In this document: one piece after another, positions 13,474 to 63,944 of the stretch | Layout of the letters: each line of letters starts with the position of its first letter | How positions within the stretch are numbered: the first letter of the stretch is position 1 | Source: Candidatus Doudnabacteria bacterium | Lineage (GTDB): Bacteria; Patescibacteriota; Doudnabacteria; UBA920; O2-02-FULL-48-8 | Length of the DNA: 64,000 bases | Direction: 5' to 3' | NCBI GenBank assembly: GCA_039931165.1 | Contig: JBDTSL010000004.1 | Location: forward strand, 21,028 to 85,027 | Notes under the pieces: model-generated | Database searches by the model: none | The model's input: the letters and a program-made list of their open reading frames with translations, nothing else | What the model was told of the DNA's origin: nothing | Made by a program: the position numbers and the translations under genes

Positions 13474-14811
13474 CTATACGAGTTCCTCACCGGATTCTGT
13501 CTCCAACGCATTTGCGTCTTCTACTACAGTTTCCTGTTTAGTTTCTTCTCCATATTTAACAACAAATATTTCTCTTGCGACAACTTGATCCTTGCGGTCA
13601 TAGATGACGGACTTGCGAGGAGTTACCCGTAAAAATTTATATTTGACCGATAAATATTCAGGTAAAGGATCTAGAATAGTGTAGCCATTTTCGGTGATGA
13701 AGTCAAGGTCGGGCATAAACGCATAATCCGACATACTGACTTTATAAGCGGGGAAGGACACAACAACTTTTGAGCCCGGAGCAAGAAATTTTTTGAACTC
13801 CTTGAAAACCTGGTCGTAGAGTTTGGACAAGGTTTTGAAATTTGAGGTCATTTCGGGCTTTTTTGGAATCTTGGAGTATAGCGGGCCAAGCGTGCCTTCG
13901 GTAACCACAGCCGCGATTTTATATTTGGGTAATTGAATTGAGATTTCGGCGGCGTTGGACCGGAAAAGCTTGTAACGCCCCAGCGCGACATGATAGCGGT
14001 TGCGGAACCATTCCAGATTTTTCTCACTGTTTTCGACCATTTTCTGCTCAATGTCCGAACCAATAGCTCGATATCCCATGAGAACTGACTCCTGCAGGAT
14101 TGTGCCGGAGCCGCAGAAAGGGTCCAAAATATAGTCCATAGGTTTCAAGGGTCCGGCAAGATTGATCATGGTCTGGGCTACTTTTGGCGGGATCATCCCT
14201 ATCTTTTCGTCGCGGGCAGGTCTCTGATAATCTCTTCTTCCGTAATCTTCGTAGTTTTGGACCGATAAAGTTTTACCGACGAACAATCTTTGGTTGCCGG
14301 CGATGATCACAACCTCCGCGCCTTTAGCGAGCAGTTGGTTCTCGGTCACTTGGACGGATGAAAGCGCTTGAGATGGGAATTGAGGCAGCACGGCGCGTAT
14401 GCTTTGGGACTGATCCTGGATGATTTTTTTTATCAGGAAGGCGATTCGCGGAGCTTCTTCATAAAACTTAATGGTAGGATCAAGCGAATAAATGGATACG
14501 CCGAACTGTTTTTTGCCCGAGTATTCGTGAAAGTATTCTTTTATTCTTTTGAAAGTAAAGTAGCCGGCCAAAACCTGCGACGGGAATTCTTTTCCCTTCT
14601 TTTGAAAAGTATCGAATAAGCGTATAATTTTAATGGTGCCGCCGAGACGGGCCTGAAGCGATTCGGTATTCAATGCTTTGTCCGCCTCGATCACCACAAC
14701 CTCGGGTGAGCAGGCCATGACTTTGTAGGCCACTTCCAGTGAAGTCAGGACCGCAAGCAGCTCGGCCAAAGACAGCGTGTAAACCCTCCCTAAAATAAAC
14801 GCGTATTGCAT
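13474..14811 (-). CDS. THUMP-domain class I SAM-dependent RNA (m2G-type) methyltransferase, Trm11/RlmL-like
   Basis: PPKVAQTMINLAG ... LDPFCGSGTIL motif I, characteristic of the THUMP-associated N2-guanine RNA methylase family; 445 aa. Confidence 0.55.
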   Translation of the reverse strand: MQYAFILGRVYTLSLAELLAVLTSLEVAYKVMACSPEVVVIEADKALNTESLQARLGGTIKIIRLFDTFQKKGKEFPSQVLAGYFTFKRIKEYFHEYSGKKQFGVSIYSLDPTIKFYEEAPRIAFLIKKIIQDQSQSIRAVLPQFPSQALSSVQVTENQLLAKGAEVVIIAGNQRLFVGKTLSVQNYEDYGRRDYQRPARDEKIGMIPPKVAQTMINLAGPLKPMDYILDPFCGSGTILQESVLMGYRAIGSDIEQKMVENSEKNLEWFRNRYHVALGRYKLFRSNAAEISIQLPKYKIAAVVTEGTLGPLYSKIPKKPEMTSNFKTLSKLYDQVFKEFKKFLAPGSKVVVSFPAYKVSMSDYAFMPDLDFITENGYTILDPLPEYLSVKYKFLRVTPRKSVIYDRKDQVVAREIFVVKYGEETKQETVVEDANALETESGEELV

Positions 14812-17227: not shown

Positions 17228-17338
17228 AAAAAAAGGGGACACAGAGATAAAATAATAAGCGCAAACTTCAGACAGGAGAGTTCGGGAGCAAAGTAACAGA
17301 AGGGCTTATTTCAAGAACGTTAGCTAGTCGCACAATGT

Positions 17339-17389: not shown

Positions 17390-17492
17390 CGCGGAGTTGC
17401 TGCGACAAAATCATATTTATCCCCTAGCCGTTTGTCGCGAAATTTCGCGCGAAATTTATTTGAAATTACTAAATTAATAATCAGAGATTCAA

Positions 17493-17520
17493 AAACCGAC
17501 CAGCAGGGTCGGTTTTGTCT
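17493..17520 (-). terminator. rho-independent terminator for the M23 peptidase gene
   Basis: aaaaaccgaccagcagggtcggtttt hairpin immediately downstream of the minus-strand stop at 17531. Confidence 0.5.
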
Positions 17521-17530
17521 CTCCCCTATT

Positions 17531-18835
17531 TTAGAGGAAGTTTAGGGGATTATAGGTTGCTCCATAAGGCACATCGTATGGACCATATATGTTCGGGTAA
17601 GCGCCGGGTGAAATCCCAAAACCTTCCGCATCAAAGACTGTAAAGTGCAGGTGATACCCGCGATGAGGCCCATAAATTAATCTGGTGGTGTTGCCGGTAT
17701 TACCTTCAAATCCCACAAGGTCGCCTTGTTTGACTGATTGTCCTTTGTTCAAAGTAAAGCTGCTCATATGACCATATAAAGACACGATTGCCCGGCCGCT
17801 GAATTGCCCAACTGTGTGTTTGATCGCAACCCAGTTGCCGTAGGCACCCGTACCTGTGCCTGTCCCGACCACCACCCCGTCACCGGCCGCGTAAATCGGA
17901 CTTCCTGGCGGGGCTGCGATGTCTATGCCGTTATGATAATTATATCCGAGCGCCGTAAATCCCGTATTGCCGTAGCCTTGCGTCAGAGTTCCTTCCATCG
18001 GCCAGCCGAGCAGGCCGTGGATCGAAGGCAGTTTGCGGTTTCCAAGCTTGGCGCTGATAGCCGCGTCAAGATCGAAAATTTCCTTGTTCAACTGATTTTC
18101 CTGTTGCTGGGAATCCGTCAACAGCCTTTGATAGGCTTTTTCCTGCCCCTTGGTTTCGTCCAGGACTTTTTGCCGCGCGACTCTTTGGCCGCTAAGACTG
18201 GCTTTACTGGTGTCCAGCTGGACCAGCAAATTATCCAGACTGGCTTTTTCGGCTTTTAAATCCGCCTGCCGCAGCTGCAGATCAGCTTGCAGTTTTTTGA
18301 TCTTGGTCAATGCTTGTTGGCTTTGATCCTGAATGCTCGAAACATATTGGACCTGGTCCAAGAATTGCTGGAAATTTTCGTTTTCAAGAGCTATTTCCAG
18401 AGGACTCCGCTGGTCCAGATCGTTAATATCCACCATCAGCGTCTTTAAGATCGCTTTCTGTTTGGTTATGTCATTTTCGGTTTTTACTATTTTGTCCGTC
18501 ACATCCGCGATGGCTATGTTGGACGCGTCAATTTTAGCCCGGGTTGCGTCTATTTGCGCAGAGGCTTCCGCAATTTGCAGGTCAAGTATGGCTAAGGTAT
18601 TTTTCAGGGTATTGGCCTGGGATTGTTTTTGCTTGATCTGGCTCTGGTAATCCGTAATTTTCTGGAGTATTGCGTCAAGCTGTTTCTGCTTGTCCAGTTT
18701 CTGCGCTGCGAGCTGATCCGCTGTTTGGCCTAAGACCTTGGGAGTCGCGCTGATAGCAAAAATAACGCCCACAATGAGCAGACCGGAAATTAATTTCTTT
18801 AAATTATTTTTATTTTGTTTCGAAATGATAGACAT
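17531..18835 (-). CDS. M23-family metallopeptidase with N-terminal coiled coil (EnvC-like murein hydrolase/activator)
   Basis: Long Q/L/K-rich coiled coil, then HNGIDIAAPPGSPIYAAGDGVV ... HMS, the M23 (LytM) core. Confidence 0.8.
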   Translation of the reverse strand: MSIISKQNKNNLKKLISGLLIVGVIFAISATPKVLGQTADQLAAQKLDKQKQLDAILQKITDYQSQIKQKQSQANTLKNTLAILDLQIAEASAQIDATRAKIDASNIAIADVTDKIVKTENDITKQKAILKTLMVDINDLDQRSPLEIALENENFQQFLDQVQYVSSIQDQSQQALTKIKKLQADLQLRQADLKAEKASLDNLLVQLDTSKASLSGQRVARQKVLDETKGQEKAYQRLLTDSQQQENQLNKEIFDLDAAISAKLGNRKLPSIHGLLGWPMEGTLTQGYGNTGFTALGYNYHNGIDIAAPPGSPIYAAGDGVVVGTGTGTGAYGNWVAIKHTVGQFSGRAIVSLYGHMSSFTLNKGQSVKQGDLVGFEGNTGNTTRLIYGPHRGYHLHFTVFDAEGFGISPGAYPNIYGPYDVPYGATYNPLNFL

Positions 18836-29384: not shown

Positions 29385-31109
29385 CTAAGGCGCGTTGAGT
29401 ATCGGGTCCGGCACCAGCCACTGGCAGCTGGTCTTGTCTTTTTTTATCCGCGAAATGTCCAGCTGTATGTCCGCTTGATGACTATCTATTAAAGATCGGA
29501 CAATACTTTGGATTTGCGCTGAAGTAAAGCTGCTCAAATCAAACTCTACCATTGAATAATCCGTCAGCTCGAATCTGTGGGTTTCGACATCAGGAGAAGG
29601 CGCAGTTTTGTTGATGACAAAAAACATTCTGGAATATTTTTGCTTGATAGCGTTTGGGTCAAACCCGAAATTCATTTCCAACAAAGTTTTCGATTCCGTG
29701 CCGGTCAGGAATAGCGGGTAGTACCTAAACCAGCAGTCGCTGTCAGAGACTCTGACGATGATCAGGTCATTCGTGGTTAAACCCAAAGCACGCATTTCTT
29801 CGGCTGTCCGATAAAATTTCTCGTGTTCGGATTGATAAATATAAGCTTGCGCGCGGCGAGATTTAAAAGCCTGGTCAAATCTCACGGATTCGTAGCCAGT
29901 AACCAATAAAGCGATCGATAAGGCTAGAACATATATGTAGCGGAAGTCTTCAGACTTCCATAATTTTCGAAACCTAAACGTTTCCGCTACTTGGCGCACA
30001 CAAATTGTCAGGGCGTATAAAATAAAAAACAAGCTCAGCAAATAACTTTGATAAATGAAATTCGGCACTTTCGATGTGACCAAGGAAATAGCCAAGAGGT
30101 TCCAGACAAACCAGCCGCCGGACAAACCAAGCAGTATTTTATCTTTCCTCTCACCTTTATACTTTATGCTTAATACTATTCCAAGCGTTATCCCTGCATA
30201 ATATACCCATGTCCAACGAAAAAGATATCTTTGCGGCAAATAGTCGGACAGATACCAATGCCAGGGCCTGGCCCATCCCTCCAGCTGCCTGAAATGGGTA
30301 AAAGAAACAAATATTTCACTTTTAAACGTCTGAGGGGAACTGAAGAATAAAGGCAGAAGACAAACCAGAAGCAAAAAAAGAAAAAACAGAACGGATGCCG
30401 ACACTTTTTTGTTTATTGTTCGGTGATCCCAAATAAGCAAGCCAAAAAAAGTTGCGGCCGGTATCGCGCCCAGCAAATTTTTCGCCATGACCGGCAAAGC
30501 CACGACCAAACCGATAAGAGCAAACTTCCAAATAGGATAGTTTAATCGCAGCTCTTGATCTTTTTCCAAATACCAAAGATTGGCTAAGAATCCAAACACA
30601 ACCGTAAAAGCCAAAACAATATCGGAAGCGCCAAAGGCGTAACCTGAGATCAGTTCATGGGTGAAAGGAGTGTTCAGCCAGAAGATCGCGGCTATTGTAG
30701 CAGCGAGTGCGGCCGATAAATTTTGACGGAATCTATAAATACCGCAAATAAACAGTAAACCTGCCGGACAAAGGACAAAGGCATATGACAGCCTTTTGAC
30801 CTCAATACTGACCTGGCCGTCGAGATTAAAAAATAGATATGGCACATAAGCAAAAAGTGGCGGGATATGCTGCCAGTAAGGCCCCTCCATCCAATTCCCC
30901 TCCTGATCTACGAGCGGATTGACGCGAACCATAGGCGGAAAAAGTTTCCTCGTCAGGTTCGCTGCCACCACGGAATTCGACGATTCGTCATGCGCCAGAA
31001 GGTCTTTTTTGAATATCCAAGGAAAATCCGATTTTGTATTGAACAAAAACAAAGTCGTGAAGATCAGGCAGAGTATGGCAACAATAATTTGATTCTGATA
31101 TTTTCTCAT
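29385..31109 (-). CDS. polytopic membrane protein, probable GT-C fold glycosyltransferase (PMT/ArnT-like)
   Basis: 574 aa, at least 10 TM helices, DE dipeptide in the first extracytoplasmic loop (LLAHDESSN), and a C-terminal soluble domain. Confidence 0.4.
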   Translation of the reverse strand: MRKYQNQIIVAILCLIFTTLFLFNTKSDFPWIFKKDLLAHDESSNSVVAANLTRKLFPPMVRVNPLVDQEGNWMEGPYWQHIPPLFAYVPYLFFNLDGQVSIEVKRLSYAFVLCPAGLLFICGIYRFRQNLSAALAATIAAIFWLNTPFTHELISGYAFGASDIVLAFTVVFGFLANLWYLEKDQELRLNYPIWKFALIGLVVALPVMAKNLLGAIPAATFFGLLIWDHRTINKKVSASVLFFLFLLLVCLLPLFFSSPQTFKSEIFVSFTHFRQLEGWARPWHWYLSDYLPQRYLFRWTWVYYAGITLGIVLSIKYKGERKDKILLGLSGGWFVWNLLAISLVTSKVPNFIYQSYLLSLFFILYALTICVRQVAETFRFRKLWKSEDFRYIYVLALSIALLVTGYESVRFDQAFKSRRAQAYIYQSEHEKFYRTAEEMRALGLTTNDLIIVRVSDSDCWFRYYPLFLTGTESKTLLEMNFGFDPNAIKQKYSRMFFVINKTAPSPDVETHRFELTDYSMVEFDLSSFTSAQIQSIVRSLIDSHQADIQLDISRIKKDKTSCQWLVPDPILNAP

Positions 31110-41992: not shown

Positions 41993-43831
41993 TCAATCGA
42001 ATTGGATTTTATCGCCGGGTTTGAGCGTTCCCTGCTTTTGTTCCGGTTCGGCGGGTTTGGTTTCTTCGGTTTTGATTACCGGGGGCGCCGGTTGAATCCG
42101 CGGCTGCTGTTCGGGTACTTGCTTTTTTGAAGCATCTTTACCGAGCGAAAGTGCCAGAGAACTGCTTAAATCCTCCAGAGCCGAAGTGGCTTTCCCAACT
42201 CTCTCGGTAATCTTTTCCGCCGCCAGCTTATTCACAGTTTCCCAAACCGGGTTTTGCGCGGGTTTTTTATCCGCCATTCTTCTGCCCGAATTATTTTCCG
42301 ACTGCTGTGCCGGCCTCCGTTCGGGTCTCCTGGTTTCCTGTCTGCGCGGCTGTTCAGACTGGCTGATCCTGGGGGCAGAAGGCACCGGCCTTTCAGAACG
42401 AGTAGCCGGAGCCGGAAGCGCTTGGTTGACTTGGACAGGAGGAGAAATAACCGCCGGACGGTCCTGGTAGCGTAAACTTTCTTGCAGCTCTTCTTGCTCA
42501 ACAGCGCCGCTCTCTGACGCAGCGGCTTGAGCGTGAAATTCCGAACCCATCCACTTGTTGATCTTCTCTTCCACTCCTTCCCGTTTGTTCGCATAGCGTT
42601 CCCTGGAAATACTGACAACTTTTTCTTCGTTGCCGGTGATCTCCGCGATTGGCGGCAGAGTTGTCGCAGAAAAAGGTGTCGATGAAACTCCGTTGATCAT
42701 CAGCTTCAAATAAACGTGATATTTGGTCAGATTGACCAGATCGTTCAGCAGATACGTCGGGTCGAATTCCTTTTCCAAAAATTCGGCGTCGTCAGCCCCG
42801 GTGCGGAAGCAAATCAATGTTCCGACGTTGCCGAAGATCGCATCCCTGACAACAGTATTTTTTTTATCCGTGACCAGCTGGCCGATGTACTGATGGGCCA
42901 CGATCAAATTCAGCCGGTATTTCCGGGCTTCGGACAGAATGTTTGCGAAAGATTCGGTGGCAAAGTTCTGGAACTCGTCCACATACAGATAAAAATCCTC
43001 CCGTTCTTCCTCAGGAATATCCACGCGGCTCATGGCCGCAAGCTGTAGCTTGGTAATGATCATGGCGCCCAGCAAAGCCGAATTGTCCTCGCCGATCCTG
43101 CCTTTCGACAGGTTGATCAGGAAAATTTTCTTGTTATCCATGATCTCCCGCAGATCAATGGAGCTTTTCGTTTGGCCCACAATGTTGCGGATAATGGCGG
43201 ATGATAAAAATTGCCCGACCTTGTTTTGAATAGGCGCGATGGCCTCGTTTCGGAATTTGTCGTTGTAATTGGCGAACTCATCCACCCAAAACGATTTGAC
43301 CACGGGATCTTTGATATTATCCACAATCCTTTTCCGATAGGTTTTGTTGACCAGCATCCGAGCGATTCCGAGCAAAGTATTGCCTGGCGAATCAAGCAGG
43401 GCCAGAATCGTGTTGTTCAGAATATACTCCATTCGCGCCGACCAGACTCCGGCCCAGATCTTCGTGAACACGCCCATCAGTCCTGATGCCACCAAATGTT
43501 TATATTTCGGGTCTACTGATTCCAAAGGGTTAAAAGCAATGGGAAAATCGCTGTCCGCGGGATTCAGATAGACTACGTCATTAACCCGGTTGGACGGGAT
43601 GTAGTTGAGGATCTTTTCCACGGAGTCGCCATGCGGATCTACAAAAGCAACCCCATGCCCATCCTGAATGTCCTGGATGACCATATTTTCGATGAGGGTG
43701 GTTTTGCCCATCCCGGTTTTGCCGATGATATACATGTGGCGCCTGCGGTCATCCCGGCGGATACCGAAAGACACATCCCGGTTCCGGAAATTGGTTTTTG
43801 CGAACAGTGTTATGTCATTATCAGAGGCCAT
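41993..43831 (-). CDS. FtsK/HerA-superfamily P-loop ATPase, TraD/VirD4 (type IV coupling protein)-like, lacking an N-terminal TM domain and carrying a Q/P/R/E-rich disordered C-terminal tail
   Basis: Walker A IIGKTGMGKTTL, DPHGD, Walker B FYLYVDEFQNF, and RKYRLNLIVAHQYIGQL (TraG/TrwB-like R..Q..QL region). The last approx. 170 aa are low complexity. Confidence 0.5.
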   Translation of the reverse strand: MASDNDITLFAKTNFRNRDVSFGIRRDDRRRHMYIIGKTGMGKTTLIENMVIQDIQDGHGVAFVDPHGDSVEKILNYIPSNRVNDVVYLNPADSDFPIAFNPLESVDPKYKHLVASGLMGVFTKIWAGVWSARMEYILNNTILALLDSPGNTLLGIARMLVNKTYRKRIVDNIKDPVVKSFWVDEFANYNDKFRNEAIAPIQNKVGQFLSSAIIRNIVGQTKSSIDLREIMDNKKIFLINLSKGRIGEDNSALLGAMIITKLQLAAMSRVDIPEEEREDFYLYVDEFQNFATESFANILSEARKYRLNLIVAHQYIGQLVTDKKNTVVRDAIFGNVGTLICFRTGADDAEFLEKEFDPTYLLNDLVNLTKYHVYLKLMINGVSSTPFSATTLPPIAEITGNEEKVVSISRERYANKREGVEEKINKWMGSEFHAQAAASESGAVEQEELQESLRYQDRPAVISPPVQVNQALPAPATRSERPVPSAPRISQSEQPRRQETRRPERRPAQQSENNSGRRMADKKPAQNPVWETVNKLAAEKITERVGKATSALEDLSSSLALSLGKDASKKQVPEQQPRIQPAPPVIKTEETKPAEPEQKQGTLKPGDKIQFD

Positions 43832-43880
43832 AGAATTTAGAATTTAGAATATAGAATATAGAATATAGAATATAGAATAT
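43832..43880. repeat. heptanucleotide tandem repeat (TAGAATT)x2-(TAGAATA)x5 immediately 5' of the ATPase start codon
   Basis: tagaatttagaatttagaatatagaatatagaatatagaatatagaatata on the plus strand (ATTCTA-type units on the coding strand). Confidence 0.8.
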
Positions 43881-43918
43881 AAAATTTAGAATAAAGTCCA
43901 AATTCCAAATTCCATATT

Positions 43919-45244
43919 CTACCTAATCGGCAGATCCATCGGCGGCGCCGATTTGACTGTCTGAACTCTCTCCAGCTGCGAAATCCTGGTATGCGGGACC
44001 TGCGGGAAGTGAAAAATACTCGCCAGCTCTTCGGTGTTCATGATGACCTTGCCTACGCCCTGCCAACTGCTGCGCGTTAAAATCCAATGCAGTATGTGCC
44101 GCCTGCGTTTCAACTTTTGATTTTCAATATATGGCCGCTCCAGCCTTTCGGAAATATGAAACGAAGGGCCTTCGGTCCAGCTGTGGCCTATATCGGGCTT
44201 CATGCCGTTGAGGTTAACATCATCAAAATTGCGGAAAGCTCCGACAATTTCCGGGATCCTCAAAGATTTGTTGATTTTTCCTTTGGGCGCCAGATAAAAA
44301 GTTCTGATACGGACTTCGTATCCGATTTTTGAAGCAGCATGTTCAATGGCGTTTATCGCCAGCTTTTCATTATCGGTTTTGTGAAGCATCAGGCTCGGCG
44401 GTTCTTCCTGCACTCGGGATGCTGGCGCATGCTCTTCAGCAGGCCCGGCAACAATGCCGACCAAAATTTTGGCGATCAGGTCAGGGACAAAATGAACAAT
44501 TTTCAGTAGCCAGTCATCCCCGTGCTTTTCCGGCACACCTTTCAGCTTTTCCACAAGATGTTTAGTGTGATTTTTCCAGGAATCATCAATGGGCTTGATG
44601 ACCAGCTGGAATAACAGCAATTCGTAAGGCTGGATATTACTCATGACCTCTATGACATTTGAAAGCGGATCGATAAATGTTTCCTGGGCGCCGTGCTCAT
44701 AAGACGAATCCTGCAGATATGTCCGGATCGGGTAAGCATTATCCTTCTTTTTCAGCCACTCCGTGCCCCAAAATTCAAAGTCCGCGTGTTCCGGATCATA
44801 ATGATGGGGCAGATTGCGCAGATAATCCTCGATTTCGCGGATCTCAGCCTTGGCGTATTGGGCAAACACCGCGCTTTCCAATAAATTCCGGAAACGGGTA
44901 GGAATTCTGAAAATATAAGAAACTTTGCCGCCCAGGCTGACAATTTCGCACGAAACAGATAAAACGGTTTTTCCGGACAACTGCTCGCCCCAGCTGTAGT
45001 TTGTATGTATCGCGTGCAGCGCCGCGAAGATCTGCTCCATAGCCAGCGGCGACTTTTCGTTCAGCTCATCGATCTTCACTTCCAAAAGAACCCATTCGAT
45101 CGAATTAGCGTACTTAATGCGGTTCGCGTCCCGCTTCAACCACCAGAGCATCCAGACCAGAAACACCAAAAAAACGGTCCACCCATACCCGCTGATCAAA
45201 ACAATGTCAACCAAATAATGAAAATAATCGCTAAGAAACGACAT
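43919..45244 (-). CDS. membrane-anchored hypothetical protein (441 aa)
   Basis: N-terminal hydrophobic helix (VDIVLISGYGWTVFLVFLVWMLWWL); contains GEQLSGKT (GxxxxGKT-like). Stop and start overlap the flanking genes. Confidence 0.35.
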   Translation of the reverse strand: MSFLSDYFHYLVDIVLISGYGWTVFLVFLVWMLWWLKRDANRIKYANSIEWVLLEVKIDELNEKSPLAMEQIFAALHAIHTNYSWGEQLSGKTVLSVSCEIVSLGGKVSYIFRIPTRFRNLLESAVFAQYAKAEIREIEDYLRNLPHHYDPEHADFEFWGTEWLKKKDNAYPIRTYLQDSSYEHGAQETFIDPLSNVIEVMSNIQPYELLLFQLVIKPIDDSWKNHTKHLVEKLKGVPEKHGDDWLLKIVHFVPDLIAKILVGIVAGPAEEHAPASRVQEEPPSLMLHKTDNEKLAINAIEHAASKIGYEVRIRTFYLAPKGKINKSLRIPEIVGAFRNFDDVNLNGMKPDIGHSWTEGPSFHISERLERPYIENQKLKRRRHILHWILTRSSWQGVGKVIMNTEELASIFHFPQVPHTRISQLERVQTVKSAPPMDLPIR

Positions 45245-46376
45245 CGGTTGATTCCTCCGTTGCTAAAGCAAATTTATCTTTTCCGACTTTTTGAAAATGT
45301 TTGCGGTTGGAAAGCCCTACCAGGATCGTGTTTCTTTTCACCTGGCGCCGCTTCATGACCTCGGCTATGATTTCTTCCCGGCCAATGGGCCTGTTGAAAG
45401 ATTTCAATATTTCACGGATCACATCCGCAACCACGCCTTTTTTGTATCCCCACTCCGACAGCGCGTAAATGCCGCGGCCGATCAGCACAAACCGGGTGTC
45501 CTTGATCAGCTCATTATGGACAGTTTCCTGATAAGCGACCCGGTCGTCGAATTTATTATCGTTGATAAGTTTAGTGATCGCCGAATAGTGCTCCGGCTTT
45601 CCGTGATGCTTCATTACCAGATAAGCCTTATCCCCTACGTCGCGGGGTTTGACTTCACTCCAATGCCGCAGCCCGATCTCGCTGAACGGATTGATTTGGA
45701 TGATCTTGGACACTCCGAGATAGCTGTGCAGGATATTATCATTAAATTCCAATTCGTGCTCCTTGAAATACGCCGTCTGCCTGAATTTTTGGTATAAAGC
45801 ATCCTGGCTTAAGACATGCTTGTCAGATTCGAGGATAGCCGTAAATTCCTTCACCACCTTCTCAAGTTTGGAGAAGTCAAAGCCCAAAATATACCATGAC
45901 TCAAAGTACTCCCCGGAATCGTGAAGGTTTTTAAACTGCTCTCCCATGCATAAGAGAAACTTGACCGCATTCAGTTCATTGTTGTCCGATTTGCTGATCA
46001 GAGTAGTCTGCATCAAAGAATCCTCGCTCATGATGCTTCCGTGCTCGACGATCGTATCGAAGATCAGCTGCAGGGCTTTTTCCAGAGGAGGAAAATGCTG
46101 TTGTTTTAATAAATTCAAGGAATCTTTTTCGATCTGGCGAACTCGCTCCCGGGTCAAATTATTTTTTTTTCCGATCGACTCCAGTGTTTCGATCTCTTTG
46201 CCGGACAAGCCAAACCGCTTGCTTAAAATCTCCCGATCCCGTTCTTTCAAGCGCGACAAAAGATCATTGACCAAAACTATAGGCTGAAAATCGTTCAGAC
46301 TGGTTTGGGTCTGACTGCCCATGATCTGGTCGAGAATGTTTGAATTGCTCTGATTGTTCAACTCTTCAGAAGCCAT
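45231..46376 (-). CDS. sigma-70 region-4-like HTH protein with C-terminal HARE-HTH-like winged helix
   Basis: LSRLKERDREILSKRFGLSGKEIETLESIGKKNNLTRERVRQIEKDSL is a near-canonical sigma region 4.2; C-terminal HYSAI...DTRFVLIGRGIYALSEWGY matches the HARE-HTH (RpoE-delta-like) pattern. No sigma region 2. Confidence 0.45.
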   Translation of the reverse strand: MASEELNNQSNSNILDQIMGSQTQTSLNDFQPIVLVNDLLSRLKERDREILSKRFGLSGKEIETLESIGKKNNLTRERVRQIEKDSLNLLKQQHFPPLEKALQLIFDTIVEHGSIMSEDSLMQTTLISKSDNNELNAVKFLLCMGEQFKNLHDSGEYFESWYILGFDFSKLEKVVKEFTAILESDKHVLSQDALYQKFRQTAYFKEHELEFNDNILHSYLGVSKIIQINPFSEIGLRHWSEVKPRDVGDKAYLVMKHHGKPEHYSAITKLINDNKFDDRVAYQETVHNELIKDTRFVLIGRGIYALSEWGYKKGVVADVIREILKSFNRPIGREEIIAEVMKRRQVKRNTILVGLSNRKHFQKVGKDKFALATEESTDVVS

Positions 46377-46580
46377 AAAATTAAATCAATAATAGTATAG
46401 CACAAATTTTCATTTCTGTCAAGAGCCTTGACGAAAATTCTAACCTTTCAGATAGTATATTTATGAAAAATCAGGATTTTAAGCCCGCGCGCGAAGTTTT
46501 GGAGAAATTACATAAAGAGCCGGATACTGGCCAGAATTCACCAAAACCCGAAAACCAAGAACCAAAATATGTAACAAAAA

Positions 46581-51683: not shown

Positions 51684-52283
51684 TTATTGTATGGGATTCG
51701 TTTGCTGCCGTCCAGTGGATAGAGTGGAGATTGAGCACAGTCCGCCCCACAACCCCAGTTTGTTGGTTCTGGCTGAAATTTCGGCGGCTAAAAATTCGGC
51801 GGATTTAGAGACATCAGGCGGATAAGGATAAGCGAAGGCGTAGCCCTGCTTGACCAGTTCCATGTTCACGAAAGTTCCGTCTTCCAGATAAACAAATCCG
51901 AGCCATCGGCCGTATTTGTCGGTTTCTTCCACGTCTTTATAAAATTTAATGGTTTTACCCTCTGCAAGTTGCTTATTTTTTTCCGCGGCTTCTTTAGCAA
52001 AGCATTGAACCGGTTTGCGCTGGTCAAATTCCTCAGGCGTATCAATGCCGACATACCTCAAATGGTCACCGTTGACCAAAACAATCGTGTCTCCGTCAAT
52101 TACTTGTGTCACTTTAATCGGGACACCATGTTCGGTTTTGATACTCTTGTCATATTTTATGCCGGACACCACCGGCAGGGTGGGTTTGACGCGGCGCTGA
52201 AAATAAACGCTTGTGACCAGCGTAAGCAATGCGATAAATAAAAATAGGAGTTTGTTTTTCACAGCATTATCTTTTTTCGGCAA
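51684..52283 (-). CDS. membrane-anchored thermonuclease (staphylococcal nuclease, SNase-like)
   Basis: N-terminal TM; VIDGDTIVL..RYVGIDTPE...R..G..W motifs of SNase. Confidence 0.75.
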   Translation of the reverse strand: MPKKDNAVKNKLLFLFIALLTLVTSVYFQRRVKPTLPVVSGIKYDKSIKTEHGVPIKVTQVIDGDTIVLVNGDHLRYVGIDTPEEFDQRKPVQCFAKEAAEKNKQLAEGKTIKFYKDVEETDKYGRWLGFVYLEDGTFVNMELVKQGYAFAYPYPPDVSKSAEFLAAEISARTNKLGLWGGLCSISTLSTGRQQTNPIQ

Positions 52284-54957
52284 TACGTTTTTGGTGTTCA
52301 GATGTATTCAAAAGCCCGCACTTCTTCCATTTCTTTCCTGAACCGCAAGGGCAAGGATCGTTGCGGCCGATCCCAGCGCTCAGCGCTGAGCGCTCAGCGC
52401 TGACAGTTGGCTGCGCCACAACATCAACTTTAAAGATCGTGAATGCGATCTGCCGGTTTATCTCATTCAAAAGTTTTTGGAACAATTGATACCCTTCGTT
52501 CTTGAATTCCTGTAAAGGATCCCTCTGGCCGTAGCCGCGCAGTCTTACGGAATCGCGCAAGTGTTCGATAGTATCCAGATGTTCCTGCCACAATGTATCG
52601 ATTGAGCGCAAATAAACCATCTTCTCTAATTGATTCATTACATCAGATCCAAGTTTTTCCTGCTTGCGCTTATATTCCCTTTCCGCGATCTGGACAAAGT
52701 GATTTATCAATTCAATTGAATCTTTCGAGTCAATTATATCTGATGGCTGCATCGGTAAAAATCCTGCCAGCTCCTGGTGCAGTTGCTCCAAATTCACTTC
52801 TTCCGCCGTCAGAGTAAAATTAACCAATTCGGTTATTTCTTTTTCCATTGATCCCAAAATTTCTTCAGCCAAAGATTCTTTGCGGTTCAGAACATCCTTA
52901 CGTTTGCCGTAAATTATAGTCCGCTGCTTGTTCATGACATCGTCATATTCCAGGACGTGTTTGCGTGTATCGAAGTTCAGGCCCTCGATCTTCTTTTGCG
53001 CCGATTCGATGGATCTGGAGATCAGGCCATGCTCGATCGGCTGATCATCCGGAATTCCCAAAGTCTCCATCATTTTCTGTACGCGTTCGCCGCCGAACAG
53101 CCTCATCAGGTCATCCTCCAAAGATAAAAAGAACTGCGAGGAACCGGGATCGCCTTGGCGACCCGCGCGTCCGCGCAATTGGTTATCGATACGCCTGGAT
53201 TCATGCCGCTCAGTGCCGATCACAGCCAGTCCCCCCAGCGATTTGATCTGTTCCTGCTGTTTCGGGTCCGGAATACTTCCGCCCAAAATAATGTCCACAC
53301 CTCGGCCGGCAATATTTGTCGCCAAAGTAACCGCGCCCAAACGACCTGCCTGCGCGATAATATGGGCTTCCCGTTCGTTATTCTTGGCATTCAAGGTCTC
53401 ATGAGCCACACCTGCGTTTGCCAGAAGCTGTGAGAGCATTTCGTTTCTCTCTATCGAGATCGTGCCGATCAAGATCGGCCTGCCGGCTTTGTTTAGTTCT
53501 TTGATCGTTCTTATAAGGGCAGTCCACTTCCCTTCCGCGTTTTTATAAACCTGGTCCGTTAAATCCGCGCGGACCATGGGTTTGTTGGTCGGGATCTGGA
53601 CCACTTCCAATTTATAAATTTTATGGAACTCCTCGGCCTCAGTCTCGGCAGTGCCGGTCATGCCGGAGAGTTTATGGTAGAGCCGGAACAAGTTTTGGAA
53701 CGTTATAGTAGCAAGAGTTTTGCTTTCTTGCTGAATTTTCACCGGCTGCCTGTAAACCGCGTTCTCCTTGGCCTCGATCGACTGGTGCAAGCCCTCCGAA
53801 TACCTGCGGCCGTACATCATGCGCCCCGTAAATTCATCAACTATGACTATTTCCCCTGACTTCACCACATACTGCTGGTCTCTTTTATATAGTTCCTTGG
53901 CGCGCAAGGCATTTTCATTATGGTGGACCAGCGCCACATCACTGTACAAATTCGGAACGTTCAAAATTTTCTCCAGTTTTGTAATACCTTTATCGTTTAT
54001 CATCACGGCTTTGTGCTTTTCGTCCACAGTGTAATCCTCATCCTTCATCAGCTTCTCGGCAGCTTTGGCGAATTCCAAGTATTTTTCGGTTGGATCAGTG
54101 TCAGGAGCCGAGATGATCAAAGGGGTACGCGCTTCATCAATCAAGATTGAATCGACTTCGTCCACAATCGCGTAAAACAAATCCCGCTGGACCATCTGTT
54201 CTTTGGACCAAACCATATTATCGCGCAAATAGTCAAAACCATATTCATTGTTCGTGCCATATACAATATCCGCGGCATAAGCGGCCCTGCGTCCGATCGG
54301 CCGCATGTCTTTGACATCCAAAACCAAACCCTGCACCTGCGACTCGACGTTCTTTATCTCTTCTTCGTCAGGAGCATACGCCGGGTCATACAGAAAAGCC
54401 TGCTCATGCTGGATGGAGGCCACCGATAAACCCAAATAATGATAGATTTGCCCCATCCAGGAAGCCTGCCAGCGGGCCAAATAGTCATTGACCGTGATCA
54501 GATGCACTCCGCGGCCGGCCAAAGCATTCAGATACATCGGCAGCGTCGCAACCAAGGTTTTTCCTTCTCCGGTCCGCATTTCCGCGATCGAACCTTCGTG
54601 CAGGACCATGCCGCCGAGAAGCTGGACATCATAATGTCTCTGTCCGATGGTTCGTTTGGCAGCTTCTCTTACCGAAGCAAACGCCTGCGGCAATATTTCG
54701 TCAAGATATTTTTTTGTCTCTATCAAATCTAAAGACGCCAGATCGGATTTCCATTTGGCAGTAAGTTCCTTCAGCTGGTCCTGCGACTTGGTCTCAAATT
54801 CTTTTTCTAGCGCGTTGATCTCGTCAACTTTCTTGCCCAGGCGCTTGACCACAGATTCGTTTGAAGAACTGAATAGATTGGATAAAAATGACATAAAAGC
54901 TTGCTTAGTATACCAACTTATGACCATTTTGAAAAGAATAAAAAACCGCCCCGACAA
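52267..54957 (-). CDS. secA: preprotein translocase ATPase SecA
   Basis: 896 aa; DEAD-like motor domains and C-terminal zinc finger CPCGSGKKWKKC. Confidence 0.95.
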   Translation of the reverse strand: MSGRFFILFKMVISWYTKQAFMSFLSNLFSSSNESVVKRLGKKVDEINALEKEFETKSQDQLKELTAKWKSDLASLDLIETKKYLDEILPQAFASVREAAKRTIGQRHYDVQLLGGMVLHEGSIAEMRTGEGKTLVATLPMYLNALAGRGVHLITVNDYLARWQASWMGQIYHYLGLSVASIQHEQAFLYDPAYAPDEEEIKNVESQVQGLVLDVKDMRPIGRRAAYAADIVYGTNNEYGFDYLRDNMVWSKEQMVQRDLFYAIVDEVDSILIDEARTPLIISAPDTDPTEKYLEFAKAAEKLMKDEDYTVDEKHKAVMINDKGITKLEKILNVPNLYSDVALVHHNENALRAKELYKRDQQYVVKSGEIVIVDEFTGRMMYGRRYSEGLHQSIEAKENAVYRQPVKIQQESKTLATITFQNLFRLYHKLSGMTGTAETEAEEFHKIYKLEVVQIPTNKPMVRADLTDQVYKNAEGKWTALIRTIKELNKAGRPILIGTISIERNEMLSQLLANAGVAHETLNAKNNEREAHIIAQAGRLGAVTLATNIAGRGVDIILGGSIPDPKQQEQIKSLGGLAVIGTERHESRRIDNQLRGRAGRQGDPGSSQFFLSLEDDLMRLFGGERVQKMMETLGIPDDQPIEHGLISRSIESAQKKIEGLNFDTRKHVLEYDDVMNKQRTIIYGKRKDVLNRKESLAEEILGSMEKEITELVNFTLTAEEVNLEQLHQELAGFLPMQPSDIIDSKDSIELINHFVQIAEREYKRKQEKLGSDVMNQLEKMVYLRSIDTLWQEHLDTIEHLRDSVRLRGYGQRDPLQEFKNEGYQLFQKLLNEINRQIAFTIFKVDVVAQPTVSAERSALSAGIGRNDPCPCGSGKKWKKCGLLNTSEHQKRIAEKR

Positions 54958-59137: not shown

Positions 59138-60514
59138 TTATTCTACCAGTTTCCTGGCCAACAAATCAATATCTCCGGCGCCCATCATAAGTACAGCGTC
59201 GAAATCCTTTATTTTATCCCTGATCAGCGTTTCTGCTTCGTCTAAATTTTGCGCAAAAGTTGCTTTCACATTTCGCAGGACAAGCTCACGGGCCAGATCA
59301 TTGGAACTGATCTGCTCTCCGTGCTCGCGCCCGGCCACGTCAAATATCTCCGGTAATATAACTTCATCGGCTATGAGCAGCGATTCGATAAATTCCCCGA
59401 ATAAAGACTTGGTTCTGTTTCTGTGATGGGGTTGAAATACGACCAGGATTTTCTTATCGGGATAAAACTGCTTTGCGGCTTCGATCGTGGCAGTCACACC
59501 AGCGGGATGATGGGCATAATCGGAAATTACAACTTTTCCGTCCAGCCTGCCGACAATTTCAAACCTGCGCCAAATGCCGGCATAATTTTCCAAAGTTTGC
59601 GCGATTGAAGCGGGTTCAACAGAAAGCTTGAGTCCAGCTAAAATCGCTCCCAAAGCGTTTGAAACATTAAATAAGCCGGGTACTTGCAACTGAAAAGTTC
59701 CGATTTTTTCGTCATTTAGATGCAAATCAAAAGTTTGACTGCCCCCTGCGCCCTGCCCCCTGACCCCTAAATTTAAAGCCTGCAAATCCGCGTAATGGCG
59801 GATTCCAAATGTAAACTTGTGACAGGTCGCGTGCTTGCCTACATCAACGGCATTATGGTCATCGGCGTTATAAATCAGAATTCCGTCTGAGGGCAACGAT
59901 TTAATGTATTCGGAAAAAGCCCGTTTGATGTCTGACAAATCCTTATAGTAGTCCAGGTGATCTTCCGCGACGTTGGTCAAAACGATCATCTTCGGCTTGT
60001 TCTCCAGCATTTTTCGGGCGTATTCATCAGACTCGGCGACGAAAAACCGCCCCAAGCCCATGCGGGCATTGGCTTTAAATTTATCGCTTTCATTTTTGGG
60101 TGAAAGCAATGAGCCGATCAGCACCGTGGGGTCCAAGCCGGCATTTTCCAAGATCTTTCCCAAAATCGCGGAAGTTGTGGACTTGCCGTTGGTTCCGGTC
60201 ACTCCAATGCCGTATTTATCTTCCATGAGCCGACCCAAGGCCTGACCCTGGCTCAGTTTGGCAATGTTTATCTTATCAAGTTCTTCCGCCGGCACGGCGG
60301 GGGTATAAATCACCAGATCAGGACTGCCTTCCACAATGTTAGAACCGAAGGAAATTTTAATCCCAAGTTTAACCAGGTCCCGGGTAATTTCCGATTCTTT
60401 CAGATCCGATCCGGAAACATTTTTTCCCATTGCAAAAAGCAGACGCGCAAGTCCTGAAACACCAATCCCGCCTATTCCCAGACAGTAAATATTTTTTGCT
60501 TCTTTGATCGTCAT
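59138..60514 (-). CDS. murC: UDP-N-acetylmuramate--L-alanine ligase
   Basis: IYCLGIGGIGVSGLARLL...GSDL N-terminus and Mur ligase central domain GTNGKSTT. Confidence 0.9.
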   Translation of the reverse strand: MTIKEAKNIYCLGIGGIGVSGLARLLFAMGKNVSGSDLKESEITRDLVKLGIKISFGSNIVEGSPDLVIYTPAVPAEELDKINIAKLSQGQALGRLMEDKYGIGVTGTNGKSTTSAILGKILENAGLDPTVLIGSLLSPKNESDKFKANARMGLGRFFVAESDEYARKMLENKPKMIVLTNVAEDHLDYYKDLSDIKRAFSEYIKSLPSDGILIYNADDHNAVDVGKHATCHKFTFGIRHYADLQALNLGVRGQGAGGSQTFDLHLNDEKIGTFQLQVPGLFNVSNALGAILAGLKLSVEPASIAQTLENYAGIWRRFEIVGRLDGKVVISDYAHHPAGVTATIEAAKQFYPDKKILVVFQPHHRNRTKSLFGEFIESLLIADEVILPEIFDVAGREHGEQISSNDLARELVLRNVKATFAQNLDEAETLIRDKIKDFDAVLMMGAGDIDLLARKLVE

Positions 60515-62825: not shown

Positions 62826-63944
62826 CTATAACCTATCACCTATAACCTCATTATAAAGCTTAATAGTCTGCTCTGCAGCTTCTTTCCAGCTGAAATGCCT
62901 GGACCTGCTCAACGCCAAATTAGCCAGTTCTTCCAGCCGCTGCGGGTTTTGTAAAAGCCGGTAAAGCACATCCGCCATGTTTGATAAATTTTCAGGGTCA
63001 AAATATTCCGCGCCCTGGCCCATGATCTCGCGAAGAGTAGGGATATCGGAACAGGCAACAGGGATGCCGCAGGCAGCCGCTTCAAGCGCTATCAAGCCAA
63101 ATCCTTCAATTAAGGAAGGTAAAACAAACAAAGTCGCCCCGTTATAAAGTTGATTTAAATCGGCATCGCTGACTCTTCCCAAGACCTTTACTCGTGATTT
63201 GTTTTTGATGCCCAAGACCTTTTCGGCGATGTCCGGATATGACGGATCAGACGCCCCAACCAAGACCAGCTCCAGGTCCATGCCTTTGGTGATAAGTATA
63301 TCAAATGCAAGGGAGAGCTGAGGCAAATTTTTATACCGGCGCCAAACACCTACGTTTAGTATATATGGCTTGCTGAACCCAAATTTATTGGACATGGCCT
63401 TATAGGCCTCCTGCTTATCAAGCATATGGTATCCCTGGCTGATTCCTTCATAGACCACGTTAATTTTATCTGCAGGAATTGGAAAATGCTCAAGAATGGA
63501 TTTTTTAGTGGCGTTGGAGACAGCGATTATTTTTTTGGAACGCCGGATCGCATTCCGCAAAATTAAGTTGTAAGCGATCCTGTGAAAAAAATGGGACTTT
63601 TTCCTGCCCGGAAACAGAGTATGCGTTAAATCGTGAATAGTCACAACAAACGGCCGGCGATAAAACAACGGCACGTTGAAATGCGGAAAATGAACCAAAT
63701 CAAGTTTTTCTCTTTTTAAAATTCCTGGAAATTTTAATTGTTCGGCAAATGAATAGTGCGGTATATCGGCAATCACAATTTTTTGGTTGTATTGTTTATA
63801 ATTCGCGGATTTATCGATGTCACGAAAAAATAAAATATATTGATTGGTTTTATCTTGCTTCAAAATCTCATGACTAAGATCGGTAATATACCGGTCTATC
63901 CCCGACCCCCCGCCGATCATGCGCAAATCCACACCTATTTTCAT
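62826..63944 (-). CDS. family 4 (GT-B) glycosyltransferase
   Basis: Two-domain GT-B architecture with C-terminal E-x7-E-like region (IEGFGLIALEAAACGIPV). Confidence 0.7.
   Translation of the reverse strand: MKIGVDLRMIGGGSGIDRYITDLSHEILKQDKTNQYILFFRDIDKSANYKQYNQKIVIADIPHYSFAEQLKFPGILKREKLDLVHFPHFNVPLFYRRPFVVTIHDLTHTLFPGRKKSHFFHRIAYNLILRNAIRRSKKIIAVSNATKKSILEHFPIPADKINVVYEGISQGYHMLDKQEAYKAMSNKFGFSKPYILNVGVWRRYKNLPQLSLAFDILITKGMDLELVLVGASDPSYPDIAEKVLGIKNKSRVKVLGRVSDADLNQLYNGATLFVLPSLIEGFGLIALEAAACGIPVACSDIPTLREIMGQGAEYFDPENLSNMADVLYRLLQNPQRLEELANLALSRSRHFSWKEAAEQTIKLYNEVIGDRL

What the first reader, a model, noticed from the sequence alone, without database searches (positions are those of the whole stretch)
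43832..43918. Heptanucleotide tandem repeat abutting the start codon of the ATPase gene (possible phase-variable expression)
The 5' UTR/promoter of the 612-aa ATPase consists of (TAGAATT)x2-(TAGAATA)x5, followed by further AATTCCA direct repeats (ccaaattccaaattcc). Repeat-unit gain or loss would alter promoter spacing or UTR structure. Short tandem repeats directly upstream of a start codon are the classic substrate for slipped-strand phase variation of surface or contingency loci.
Basis: seen in the sequence. Interest (0 to 1): 0.55.

Follow-up and report, generated by a model that had tools for sequence, protein, structure and literature searches.

The report
Heptamer-repeat hairpin between two operon genes
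The 7-base tandem repeat is real, but it is the largest of many such arrays that this group of tiny uncultured bacteria (Candidatus Doudnabacteria) carries between and inside housekeeping genes; here it forms an RNA hairpin between two co-transcribed genes and is probably not a phase-variation switch.

Summary
Window 43832..43918 is entirely period-7 repeat: (TAGAATT)2(TAGAATA)5 plus decayed units, then (AAATTCC)~4. TRF scores it 100, and 0 of 20,000 shuffles come close.

The repeat is the whole 87-nt spacer, on the minus strand, between a DUF8128 membrane-protein gene and a VirD4/TraD-like ATPase gene. These two belong to a three-gene cluster conserved with the same gene order across Candidatus Doudnabacteria (CPR), with a strong promoter upstream of the first gene.

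The two sub-arrays are inverted copies. On the sense RNA they form a 25-bp A/U-rich stem-loop that starts at the upstream stop codon (-25.1 kcal/mol, z -3.9). About 33 unpaired A/U-rich nucleotides follow, up to an AUG with no Shine-Dalgarno motif.

The array is not specific to this locus:
- Period-7 arrays are about 120 times over-represented in 1.37 Mb of Doudnabacteria DNA.
- In this window they precede ftsX, rplI and murG.
- In relatives they sit in frame inside MnmA and Mur-ligase loops.
- In 62 relatives this same junction is either 22 nt or less, or carries unrelated repeat hairpins.

Best reading: a slippage-generated repeat hairpin acting as a passive spacer between cistrons. Copy-number change would give at most a graded effect. 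Phase variation is not supported, and it could not be tested directly because no same-species data were found.

The parts
43845..43879 (-). Perfect core of the array: (TAGAATA)5 on the + strand, (UAUUCUA)5 on the sense RNA
   Evidence: four overlapping zero-mismatch matches of the 16-mer TAGAATATAGAATATA, which together cover the perfect run
43830..43893 (-). Full period-7 array, 9.1 copies, 89% matches, including decayed flanking units. Its last unit abuts the ATPase AUG.
   Evidence: TRF score 100; 0 of 20,000 shuffles
43893..43921 (-). Inverted partner array: (AAATTCC)~4 on the + strand, (GGAAUUU)3 on the sense RNA. It begins at and includes the stop codon UAG of the upstream gene.
   Evidence: inverted repeats I1-I8, 73-85% complementary at the DNA level
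43865..43922 (-). Predicted stem-loop in the sense RNA: 14 bp, a 1x1 internal loop, 11 bp, and a 6-nt loop. It has 25 pairs, of which 5 are G.U and 3 are G-C.
   Evidence: -25.1 kcal/mol, z -3.88, 0/200 shuffles. The antisense strand gives only -10.6 kcal/mol, z -0.41.
43832..43864 (-). Unpaired A/U-rich repeat tail (about 4.7 units) between the hairpin and the AUG, with no Shine-Dalgarno motif
41993..43831 (-). 612-aa VirD4/TraD-like P-loop ATPase (TrwB_AAD_bind, TraG-D_C) with a disordered C-terminal tail
43919..45244 (-). 441-aa membrane protein. Its orthologues carry Pfam DUF8128 (PF26449).
45231..46376 (-). 381-aa protein with a sigma-70 region 4 domain and a weak, sub-cutoff HARE-HTH match. 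It is the first gene of the cluster and overlaps the next gene by 14 nt.
46394..46422 (-). Best promoter-like site of the region: TTGACA-17-TATACT (11/12, preceded by TG), upstream of the first gene

Best explanation
The element is an 87-nt intercistronic spacer in a conserved, probably co-transcribed three-gene cluster: a sigma-r4/HARE-HTH protein, a DUF8128 membrane protein, and a VirD4-like ATPase. The genome is a Candidatus Doudnabacteria (CPR). The spacer has been filled by a heptanucleotide simple-sequence repeat and an inverted copy of it.

Shown:
- It is the largest member of a lineage-wide population of 7-nt tandem arrays. These sit at permissive sites: gene junctions and surface loops of proteins.
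- On the sense RNA the two arrays pair into a 25-bp A/U-rich stem-loop that begins at the upstream stop codon.
- About 33 nt of unpaired A/U-rich repeat follow, running into an AUG with no Shine-Dalgarno motif.

Inferred:
- The arrays arise by replication slippage. The inverted arm arises by template switching or duplication, and both turn over quickly.
- In the mRNA the stem-loop acts like other intercistronic palindromes, as a barrier to 3' decay or a double-strand-RNase site, and it uncouples translation of the two genes.
- The surplus repeat units simply keep the start region single-stranded.
- A change in copy number would give at most a graded effect, and only after loss of two or more units. 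It would not give an ON/OFF switch.
For: Array and statistics. Sense-strand hairpin -25.1 kcal/mol, z -3.9, against antisense -10.6, z -0.4. No canonical terminator in the spacer, although GC-stem plus U-tract terminators exist elsewhere in the window. Strong promoter only upstream of the first gene. Conserved gene order. In 62 relatives the same junction is 22 nt or less in 31 and 29-208 nt in 31. About 15 of the long spacers fold with z of -2.5 or lower, and their unit sequences are unrelated. Period-7 arrays with TRF score of 40 or more: 48 observed against 0.4 in local dinucleotide shuffles of 1.37 Mb. The excess is about 10-fold at periods 8 and 9, and there is little or none at periods 10 and 11. 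Arrays precede ftsX, rplI and murG in this window. In relatives they lie in frame in MnmA, Mur-ligase and peptidase loops. Among 315 co-directional spacers, those with tandem arrays fold much better than the rest (mean z about -4.2 against -2.0). Only 10 of 71 genes have an SD-like motif. Copy-number titration: P(unpaired) around the AUG is 0.24 with 0-1 units, 0.43 with 2-3 units, and about 0.6 with 4 or more units; the native array has 5.
Against: There are no transcript, read-level or strain data, so co-transcription, the RNA structure and any effect on expression are all predictions. The strand asymmetry rests on 5 G.U pairs that are copies of one or two unit-level substitutions, so it is weak evidence for selection at the RNA level. 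Across relatives the repeat hairpins fold equally well on both strands. The closest relatives have a spacer of only 3-17 nt, so whatever the element does is dispensable and it may be purely neutral. A/T-rich repeats also create weak promoter-like hexamers on both strands, so an internal start site is not excluded.
Confidence: 0.55

Rival explanations
1. The array is a phase-variable or 'volume-control' simple-sequence repeat. Slipped-strand gain or loss of 7-nt units would change promoter geometry or leader structure and switch or tune ATPase expression, as at the hmw1A/hmw2A genes of Haemophilus influenzae.
For: There are 5 perfect and about 9 total heptamer units directly upstream of the AUG. 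Heptamer tracts upstream of genes are known to modulate expression (PMC2651432). The spacer varies greatly between species. In silico, loss of two or more units lowers start-site accessibility.
Against: The gene is a conserved core gene in conserved gene order, not a surface or contingency gene. The arrays are genome-wide and precede housekeeping genes. No -35/-10 pair straddles the tract. Steps of one unit around the native copy number have no predicted effect. Known examples have 13-38 perfect copies. Three other arrays were identical in four assemblies of one related population, but those assemblies had zero SNPs, so that test has low power.
Confidence: 0.12
2. The array is a stack of tandem -10-like promoter boxes. 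Sense-strand TATATT/TAAATT hexamers would give the ATPase its own short-leader or leaderless transcript. Alternatively, the + strand TTTAGA-17-TAGAAT sites would drive an antisense RNA into the DUF8128 gene.
For: The promoter scan finds 9/12 matches inside the array on both strands. In this lineage -10-like hexamers peak 6-9 nt before the ATG: 72 of 645 genes, with 25 at gap 6 against a background of about 8. TAGAAT and TATACT serve as the apparent -10 of other genes in the window. The last units of the rplI and murG arrays place TATACT or TATAGT 6-8 nt before the ATG.
Against: All sites in the array are weak (9/12, poor -35, no TG). The best sense hexamer at leaderless distance (TAAATT, 9-nt gap) matches TATAAT at only 4 of 6 positions, and the better TATATT boxes lie 16 nt or more away. 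Any A/T-rich repeat that contains TA makes such matches on both strands. Half of the relatives have no room for a promoter at this junction.
Confidence: 0.15
3. The spacer is an inserted mobile or selfish palindromic element, like REP/BIME elements, MITEs, or the Rickettsia palindromic elements that also land in frame inside genes. In that case it did not grow by slippage in place.
For: Repeat hairpins appear and disappear at the same gene junctions across species. Some unit families recur at several loci of one genome: CTTTATAC at three window loci, 9 matches against 0.35 expected. Composite arrays occur as inverted copies 10-12 kb apart in L031 and L066. Arrays and GC-rich palindromes are inserted in frame at one MnmA loop.
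Against: The TAGAATA/GGAATTT element occurs only once in the 64-kb window. Units are very diverse, about 50 canonical units among 68 arrays. No conserved ends or target-site duplications were seen. The perfect 5-unit run points to recent local expansion.
Confidence: 0.1
4. The units form an iteron-like array of binding sites for a DNA- or RNA-binding protein, for example a ribosomal protein S1 or Csp-type factor, as was proposed for the TAACTGA repeats of Beggiatoaceae.
For: The heptamer repeats lie directly upstream of start codons without Shine-Dalgarno motifs, including a ribosomal-protein gene. This matches the Beggiatoaceae description (PMC4679880). About 30% of arrays share an AAATTnn core.
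Against: There is no single conserved unit: neighbouring loci use unrelated heptamers. The arrays also lie inside coding regions and after stop codons. No candidate binding protein was identified.
Confidence: 0.05

Closest known systems
Long simple-sequence repeats with 5-11-nt units in prokaryotes (Mrazek et al. 2007, as summarised in PMC4679880)
   Same: The tandem unit is 7 nt and the array is far longer than chance allows. Heptamers are the dominant class, and slippage is the presumed origin. Units that are not multiples of 3 occur mostly outside genes.
   Different: This lineage (CPR / Doudnabacteria) was not in that survey. Here arrays often come as inverted pairs that form hairpins, and many also sit in frame inside conserved proteins.
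TAACTGA heptamer direct repeats upstream of start codons in marine Beggiatoaceae, Cyanobacteria and Bacteroidetes (MacGregor 2015, PMC4679880)
   Same: A few copies of a heptamer lie within a few nucleotides of start codons that lack a Shine-Dalgarno motif, including ribosomal-protein genes, with no pattern in gene function.
   Different: That system uses one fixed heptamer genome-wide and related heptamers are rare. Here dozens of unrelated units occur, and this locus also has an inverted arm.
Heptanucleotide tracts upstream of hmw1A/hmw2A in Haemophilus influenzae (Dawid 1999, as cited in PMC2651432)
   Same: 7-nt tandem units upstream of a gene, where slippage changes copy number.
   Different: Those tracts have 13-38 perfect copies about 70-100 bp upstream, in the promoters of adhesin genes, and they vary between strains. 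Here there are 5 perfect copies in an intercistronic spacer of a conserved core gene, with no evidence of variation.
REP/BIME intercistronic palindromes of enterobacteria, for example malE-malF (from my own knowledge: Newbury, Higgins et al. 1987)
   Same: A stem-loop between co-transcribed genes that is not a terminator. In that system it stabilises the upstream mRNA and sets relative expression within the operon. This is the proposed 'works like' model.
   Different: REPs are a conserved GC-rich sequence family of about 35 nt. This hairpin is A/U-rich, is built from locus-specific heptamer units, and is unique within the window.
Rickettsia palindromic elements (from my own knowledge: Ogata et al. 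2000)
   Same: For the wider phenomenon, short palindromic or repetitive inserts are found both between genes and in frame inside housekeeping proteins.
   Different: RPEs are 100-150-bp members of defined sequence families. The Doudnabacteria inserts are 20-60-nt heptamer arrays with diverse units.

Membership tests
Phase-variable simple-sequence-repeat (contingency) locus | A long, perfect or near-perfect tandem tract capable of frequent slippage | tested here: inconclusive
   There are 5 perfect units (35 bp) and 9.1 units at 89% identity. Documented heptamer cases have 13-38 perfect units.
Phase-variable simple-sequence-repeat (contingency) locus | The tract lies inside the ORF, or between or next to promoter elements, so that unit number changes expression | tested here: not met
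   The tract is outside both ORFs. No -35/-10 pair straddles it, and the strong promoter is at 46394..46422. A change of one unit has no predicted effect on start-site accessibility.
Phase-variable simple-sequence-repeat (contingency) locus | The associated gene is a surface, restriction-modification or otherwise dispensable contingency gene | tested here: not met
   The gene is a VirD4-like ATPase conserved in 80 of 80 fetched relatives with the same gene order.
Phase-variable simple-sequence-repeat (contingency) locus | Copy number differs between strains or between reads | not testable with these tools
   No identical protein and no copy of the unique loop 28-mer exist in the public collections. 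The closest relative is 80-88% identical in protein sequence.
Long simple-sequence repeat, heptanucleotide class (Mrazek 2007) | The unit is 5-11 nt and the array is longer than expected by chance in that genome | tested here: met
   TRF score 100; 0 of 20,000 shuffles.
Long simple-sequence repeat, heptanucleotide class (Mrazek 2007) | Heptamers predominate among the genome's long repeats | tested here: met
   At score 40 or more, period 7 gives 48 arrays against 0.4 in shuffles. Period 8 gives 10 against 1.0, period 10 gives 8 against 4.2, and period 11 gives 5 against 6.2.
TAACTGA-type start-codon-proximal heptamer repeats (MacGregor 2015) | Direct repeats lie within a few nucleotides upstream of start codons that lack a Shine-Dalgarno motif | tested here: met
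   This holds at this locus and before ftsX, rplI and murG.
TAACTGA-type start-codon-proximal heptamer repeats (MacGregor 2015) | One specific heptamer is used genome-wide and related heptamers are rare | tested here: not met
   There are about 50 canonical units among 68 arrays, and none is TAACTGA.
REP/BIME-like intercistronic palindromic element | An imperfect palindrome forms a stable stem-loop between co-directional genes and is not a terminator | tested here: met
REP/BIME-like intercistronic palindromic element | It is a member of a conserved sequence family dispersed through the genome | tested here: not met
   The TAGAATA/GGAATTT element is found only at this site in the 64 kb. The rest of the genome was not available.
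Intrinsic (Rho-independent) terminator | A G+C-rich stem followed by a U-tract | tested here: not met
   The stem has 3 G-C pairs out of 25 and no U-tract. The scan finds no terminator in the spacer. Canonical terminators exist elsewhere in the window.
Any described RNA family (Rfam 15) | The score reaches the family's gathering threshold | tested here: not met
   Only sub-threshold matches to miRNA-precursor hairpin models were found, of 25 bits or less against thresholds of 44 or more.

The most novel reading that the evidence does not exclude
Doudnabacteria, and perhaps other CPR bacteria, may have an active lineage-wide process or element that builds 7-nt tandem arrays. In spacers these appear as inverted pairs that form hairpins; in housekeeping proteins they appear as in-frame inserts in surface loops. 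They arise repeatedly at the same junctions with unrelated units. The hairpins might be used as an RNA-level layer of operon regulation in genomes that largely lack Shine-Dalgarno motifs and often use leaderless mRNAs. This locus would be the largest instance.
Probability: 0.2. Interest if true: 0.65.

Novelty: new variant of a known kind. Interest (0 to 1): 0.4.

Why it matters
For this locus, the result removes a tempting but unsupported reading, namely phase variation of an ATPase. The repeat sits in a conserved housekeeping-type operon and resembles dozens of others in the lineage.

The wider pattern may be worth a dedicated study. CPR genomes are small and streamlined, yet these accumulate heptamer arrays at about 120 times the chance expectation. 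The arrays often form inverted pairs that make hairpins between cistrons, and they even sit in frame in MnmA and Mur-ligase loops. This bears on three questions: how mutation processes shape reduced genomes, how new protein loops arise, and how gene expression is organised where Shine-Dalgarno motifs are rare. Two full-text searches found no description of this in CPR.

Tried and rejected
- Same-species comparison. The exact ATPase protein is not on record. The unique loop 28-mer has 0 hits in metagenome contigs. The best homologue is 80% identical, or 88% for a partial one. Copy-number polymorphism at this locus therefore could not be tested.
- Scan for (TAGAATA)4 in metagenomes. It found more than 120 contigs of all kinds. 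This microsatellite is not diagnostic, so I did not follow it up.
- Conspecific contigs of relatives as a proxy for array stability. P0008 gave 3 contigs with 107 SNPs and one 177-nt deletion, with no repeat-type indels. P0058 gave 10 contigs with 7 SNPs and no heptamer arrays. P0037 with L005 gave 4 contigs in which three arrays were identical, but with zero SNPs over 14.6 kb, so the test has no power.
- Known RNA families. None was found.
- Canonical terminator. Rejected.
- Defence-system reading. PADLOC gives only a weak mad8/HerA-type ATPase match, and MzaA matches only through sigma region 4. The conserved core gene order argues against a defence island.
- RNA-level selection inferred from G.U asymmetry. 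It holds at this locus. It is not general across relatives, and it rests on few independent substitutions, so I do not rely on it.
- Homology of the spacer across species. The units are unrelated apart from small groups: TACTAAT/ATTAGTA in L009, L039, L043, L069 and L081, and TTTATAAAG in L073 and L079. I therefore built no covariance model.

Full report
**1. What is there**

The finding's coordinates (43832..43918) are exactly the gap between two minus-strand ORFs. The upstream ORF, 43919..45244, encodes 441 aa and ends ...APPMDLPIR-UAG. The downstream ORF, 41993..43831, encodes 612 aa and starts MASDNDITLFAKTNFRN. Both ends agree with homologues. An in-frame TAA lies 15 nt upstream of the ATG, so the start cannot be further upstream.

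Read on the sense strand, the spacer is:
UAG AAUAUGG AAUUUGG AAUUUGG ACUUUAUUCUAAAUUUUA (UAUUCUA)5 AAUUCUA AAUUCU AUG.

TRF gives period 7, 9.1 copies and score 100 for 43830-43893, the best score in the window. It gives period 7 and 3.9 copies for 43893-43919. None of 20,000 shuffles of the 87 nt approaches the observed period-7 score: 47 observed, maximum 19 in shuffles.

**2. Context**

The 612-aa protein is a VirD4/TraD/TrwB-like P-loop ATPase (PF10412, PF12696, DUF87) with a long disordered C-terminal tail. Orthologues of the 441-aa protein carry DUF8128. The gene before it (45231..46376) has a sigma-70 region 4 domain and a weak, sub-cutoff match to HARE-HTH; it overlaps the DUF8128 gene by 14 nt.

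The best promoter-like site of the region is TTGACA-17-TATACT, preceded by TG. It lies upstream of that first gene. There is no terminator-like site in the spacer. Canonical terminators with a GC stem and a U-tract do occur elsewhere in the window.

Homologues identify the organism as Candidatus Doudnabacteria (Patescibacteria/CPR). The best hit is 80% identical, and a partial hit reaches 88%. The order sigma-r4, DUF8128, ATPase, mnmA, with secDF and the H+-pyrophosphatase nearby, recurs in relatives and matches the window. This is a conserved core cluster. It is neither a contingency locus nor a defence island; PADLOC gives only weak ATPase-level matches.

**3. The two sub-arrays are an inverted pair**

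The sense RNA folds into a stem-loop at 43865..43922. It has 14 bp, a 1x1 internal loop, 11 bp and a 6-nt loop. The free energy is -25.1 kcal/mol with z -3.88, and 0 of 200 shuffles fold as well. The antisense strand reaches only -10.6 kcal/mol, z -0.41.

The difference comes from 5 G.U pairs, where UGGAAUU pairs with AAUUCUA. Because the units are copies of each other, these pairs reflect only one or two independent substitutions. I treat the asymmetry as suggestive, not as proof of selection at the RNA level.

The stem begins one base before the upstream stop codon. The 3' array is longer than the 5' arm, so about 33 nt (4.7 units) stay unpaired between the hairpin and the AUG. Several alternative pairing registers exist (I1-I5). 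No Rfam family matches.

**4. The array is not special to this locus**

- *Other arrays in the window.* Degenerate 7-nt arrays lie directly before the start codons of ftsX (7605-7627), rplI (8603-8634) and murG (62826-62848). Others lie in a divergent spacer (14811-14844) and after a methyltransferase gene (13450-13480). Several have an inverted partner nearby.
- *Over-representation.* In the window plus 80 related loci (1.37 Mb), arrays with TRF score of 40 or more were compared with local dinucleotide shuffles:

| Period | Observed | Shuffled mean |
|---|---|---|
| 7 | 48 | 0.4 |
| 8 | 10 | 1.0 |
| 9 | 20 | 1.9 |
| 10 | 8 | 4.2 |
| 11 | 5 | 6.2 |

- *Arrays inside genes.* Thirty of the 48 period-7 arrays lie in frame inside conserved genes. 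In MnmA, the loop after TGHYAR carries different heptamer arrays in L004, L006, L007, L009, L013, L015 and L028. A Mur ligase (L058, L066) and a peptidase of about 850 aa (L043, L046, L053, L071) carry AAATTYC-type arrays.
- *Unit diversity.* There are about 50 canonical units among 68 arrays, and roughly 30% share an AAATTnn core.
- *Arrays go with palindromes.* Among 315 co-directional spacers, those with tandem arrays fold much better than the rest (mean z about -4.2 against -2.0). This holds equally on both strands.

**5. The same junction in relatives**

In 62 relatives with the DUF8128-ATPase pair, the spacer is 0-22 nt in 31 and 29-208 nt in 31. About 15 of the long spacers are strong hairpins built from forward and inverted arrays of 7-9-nt units.

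The unit sequences are mostly unrelated between genomes. Examples are AGTGTAC in L078, TTTATAAAG in L073 and L079, TTGACAAAA in L037, TACTAAT in L009, L039, L043, L069 and L081, and AGAATTT x5 in L057. The closest relatives have spacers of only 3-17 nt.

The element at this locus is therefore a recent, lineage-specific gain at a junction that repeatedly gains and loses such structures.

**6. Mechanism**

*Shown:* the array, its inverted arm, the predicted sense-strand hairpin, the lack of a terminator, the upstream promoter, the genome-wide and lineage-wide excess of heptamer arrays, and the rapid turnover at this junction.

*Inferred:* the arrays arise by replication slippage. Heptamers are the commonest long simple-sequence repeats in several prokaryotes, according to Mrazek 2007 as summarised in PMC4679880. 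They persist where they are tolerated.

In the polycistronic mRNA the stem-loop would behave like other intercistronic palindromes (the REP model, from my own knowledge). It would be a barrier to 3'-to-5' decay or a substrate for a double-strand RNase, and it would uncouple translation of the two genes. The unpaired A/U-rich tail would keep the AUG accessible in a genome where Shine-Dalgarno-like motifs are rare (10 of 71 genes).

An in-silico titration supports at most a graded role for copy number. The mean P(unpaired) over -18..+12 is 0.24-0.26 with 0-1 perfect units, 0.43 with 2-3 units, and about 0.6 from 4 units upward. The native array has 5. Gains, and the loss of a single unit, are predicted to have no effect.

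**7. Rival explanations**

- *Phase variation* remains formally untested, because no same-species data exist. It is disfavoured by the nature of the gene, the genome-wide distribution of arrays, the absence of a promoter straddling the tract, and the short perfect run compared with known cases.
- *A stack of weak -10-like boxes* is possible. The lineage shows a peak of -10-like hexamers 6-9 nt before ATGs, which suggests frequent leaderless mRNAs. However, the hexamers in this array are weak and occur on both strands.
- *A mobile palindromic element* is suggested by recurring unit families and by distant inverted copies in L031 and L066. This particular element is single-copy in the window.
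- *A protein-binding iteron array* is unlikely, given the diversity of units.

**8. Comparison with known systems and novelty**

The feature meets the definition of a heptanucleotide long simple-sequence repeat. In position it resembles the TAACTGA repeats of Beggiatoaceae (PMC4679880), which lie just upstream of start codons without Shine-Dalgarno motifs, including ribosomal-protein genes. It fails that family's defining feature of a single conserved heptamer.

It is not a canonical terminator. It is not a REP family member, since no dispersed conserved sequence was found in the window. It does not match any Rfam family.

Two features seem undescribed: hairpins built from inverted heptamer arrays, and in-frame heptamer arrays in conserved proteins of a CPR lineage. 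Two full-text searches found nothing, although the library is incomplete. I rate the feature a new variant of a known kind. Interest is moderate for the wider pattern and low for the phase-variation claim.

Noticed in passing
L004, L006, L007, L009, L013, L015, L028 (MnmA loop after TGHYAR); L058 16456-16633 and L066 17142-17168 (Mur ligase after GTKGKGTT); L043, L046, L053, L071 (peptidase of about 850 aa): Heptamer DNA arrays sit in frame inside conserved housekeeping proteins. They occupy the same loop in different species but use different units, for example (CGAAATC)4.7, (TCAAAAG)6.9 and (AAATTCC)4.7. At the same MnmA loop, L022, L024, L027 and L035 carry GC-rich palindromic in-frame inserts.
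   Followed up: partly
window + L001-L080, regions upstream of start codons: Hexamers resembling a -10 box (TAnnnT, at least 5 of 6 matches to TATAAT) peak 6-9 nt before the ATG. This holds for 72 of 645 genes with an upstream spacer of 40 nt or more; gap 6 has 25 against a background of about 8. Only 10 of 71 window genes have a Shine-Dalgarno-like motif. Leaderless mRNAs may be common in this lineage.
   Followed up: partly
window 13450-13480 and 14811-14844: (ACGTTAT)n and (TATAACG)n arrays are inverted copies of each other. They flank the whole 445-aa methyltransferase gene 13474..14811(-), which lies 55 nt upstream of the rpmA (L27) gene.
   Followed up: no
L031 4324-4605 vs 14638-14825; L066 6281-6342 vs 18137-18255: Long composite blocks, each made of several different heptamer arrays, occur as inverted copies 10-12 kb apart. 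They bracket the secF-to-mnmA region that contains the ATPase cluster.
   Followed up: no
window 7567-7627, 8603-8632, 30155-30177: The same CTTTATAC-type unit recurs at three loci, with 9 matches against 0.35 expected. The third locus lies inside the ORF of a 574-aa membrane protein, where it encodes ...VLSIKYKGE....
   Followed up: partly
window 17228-17530: This 303-nt spacer between convergent genes folds to about -94 kcal/mol. It includes a long near-perfect hairpin (GTACCTTATACGACAACAC...GTGTTGTCGTATAAGGT) and a terminator. It has no Rfam match.
   Followed up: partly
window 52374-52401 and 59739-59768: Two further period-7 arrays lie inside coding regions. (CAGCGCT)4, a self-complementary unit, sits near the 3' end of an 886-aa ORF (52267..54927, -). 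(CTGCCCC)4.3 sits inside a 458-aa ORF.
   Followed up: no
window 8552-8600: A perfect 17-bp A/T-rich palindrome (CAAGTATCTGCGAATTT/AAATTCGCAGATACTTG) lies directly after ftsX. It has no U-tract and is followed by the rplI heptamer arrays.
   Followed up: no
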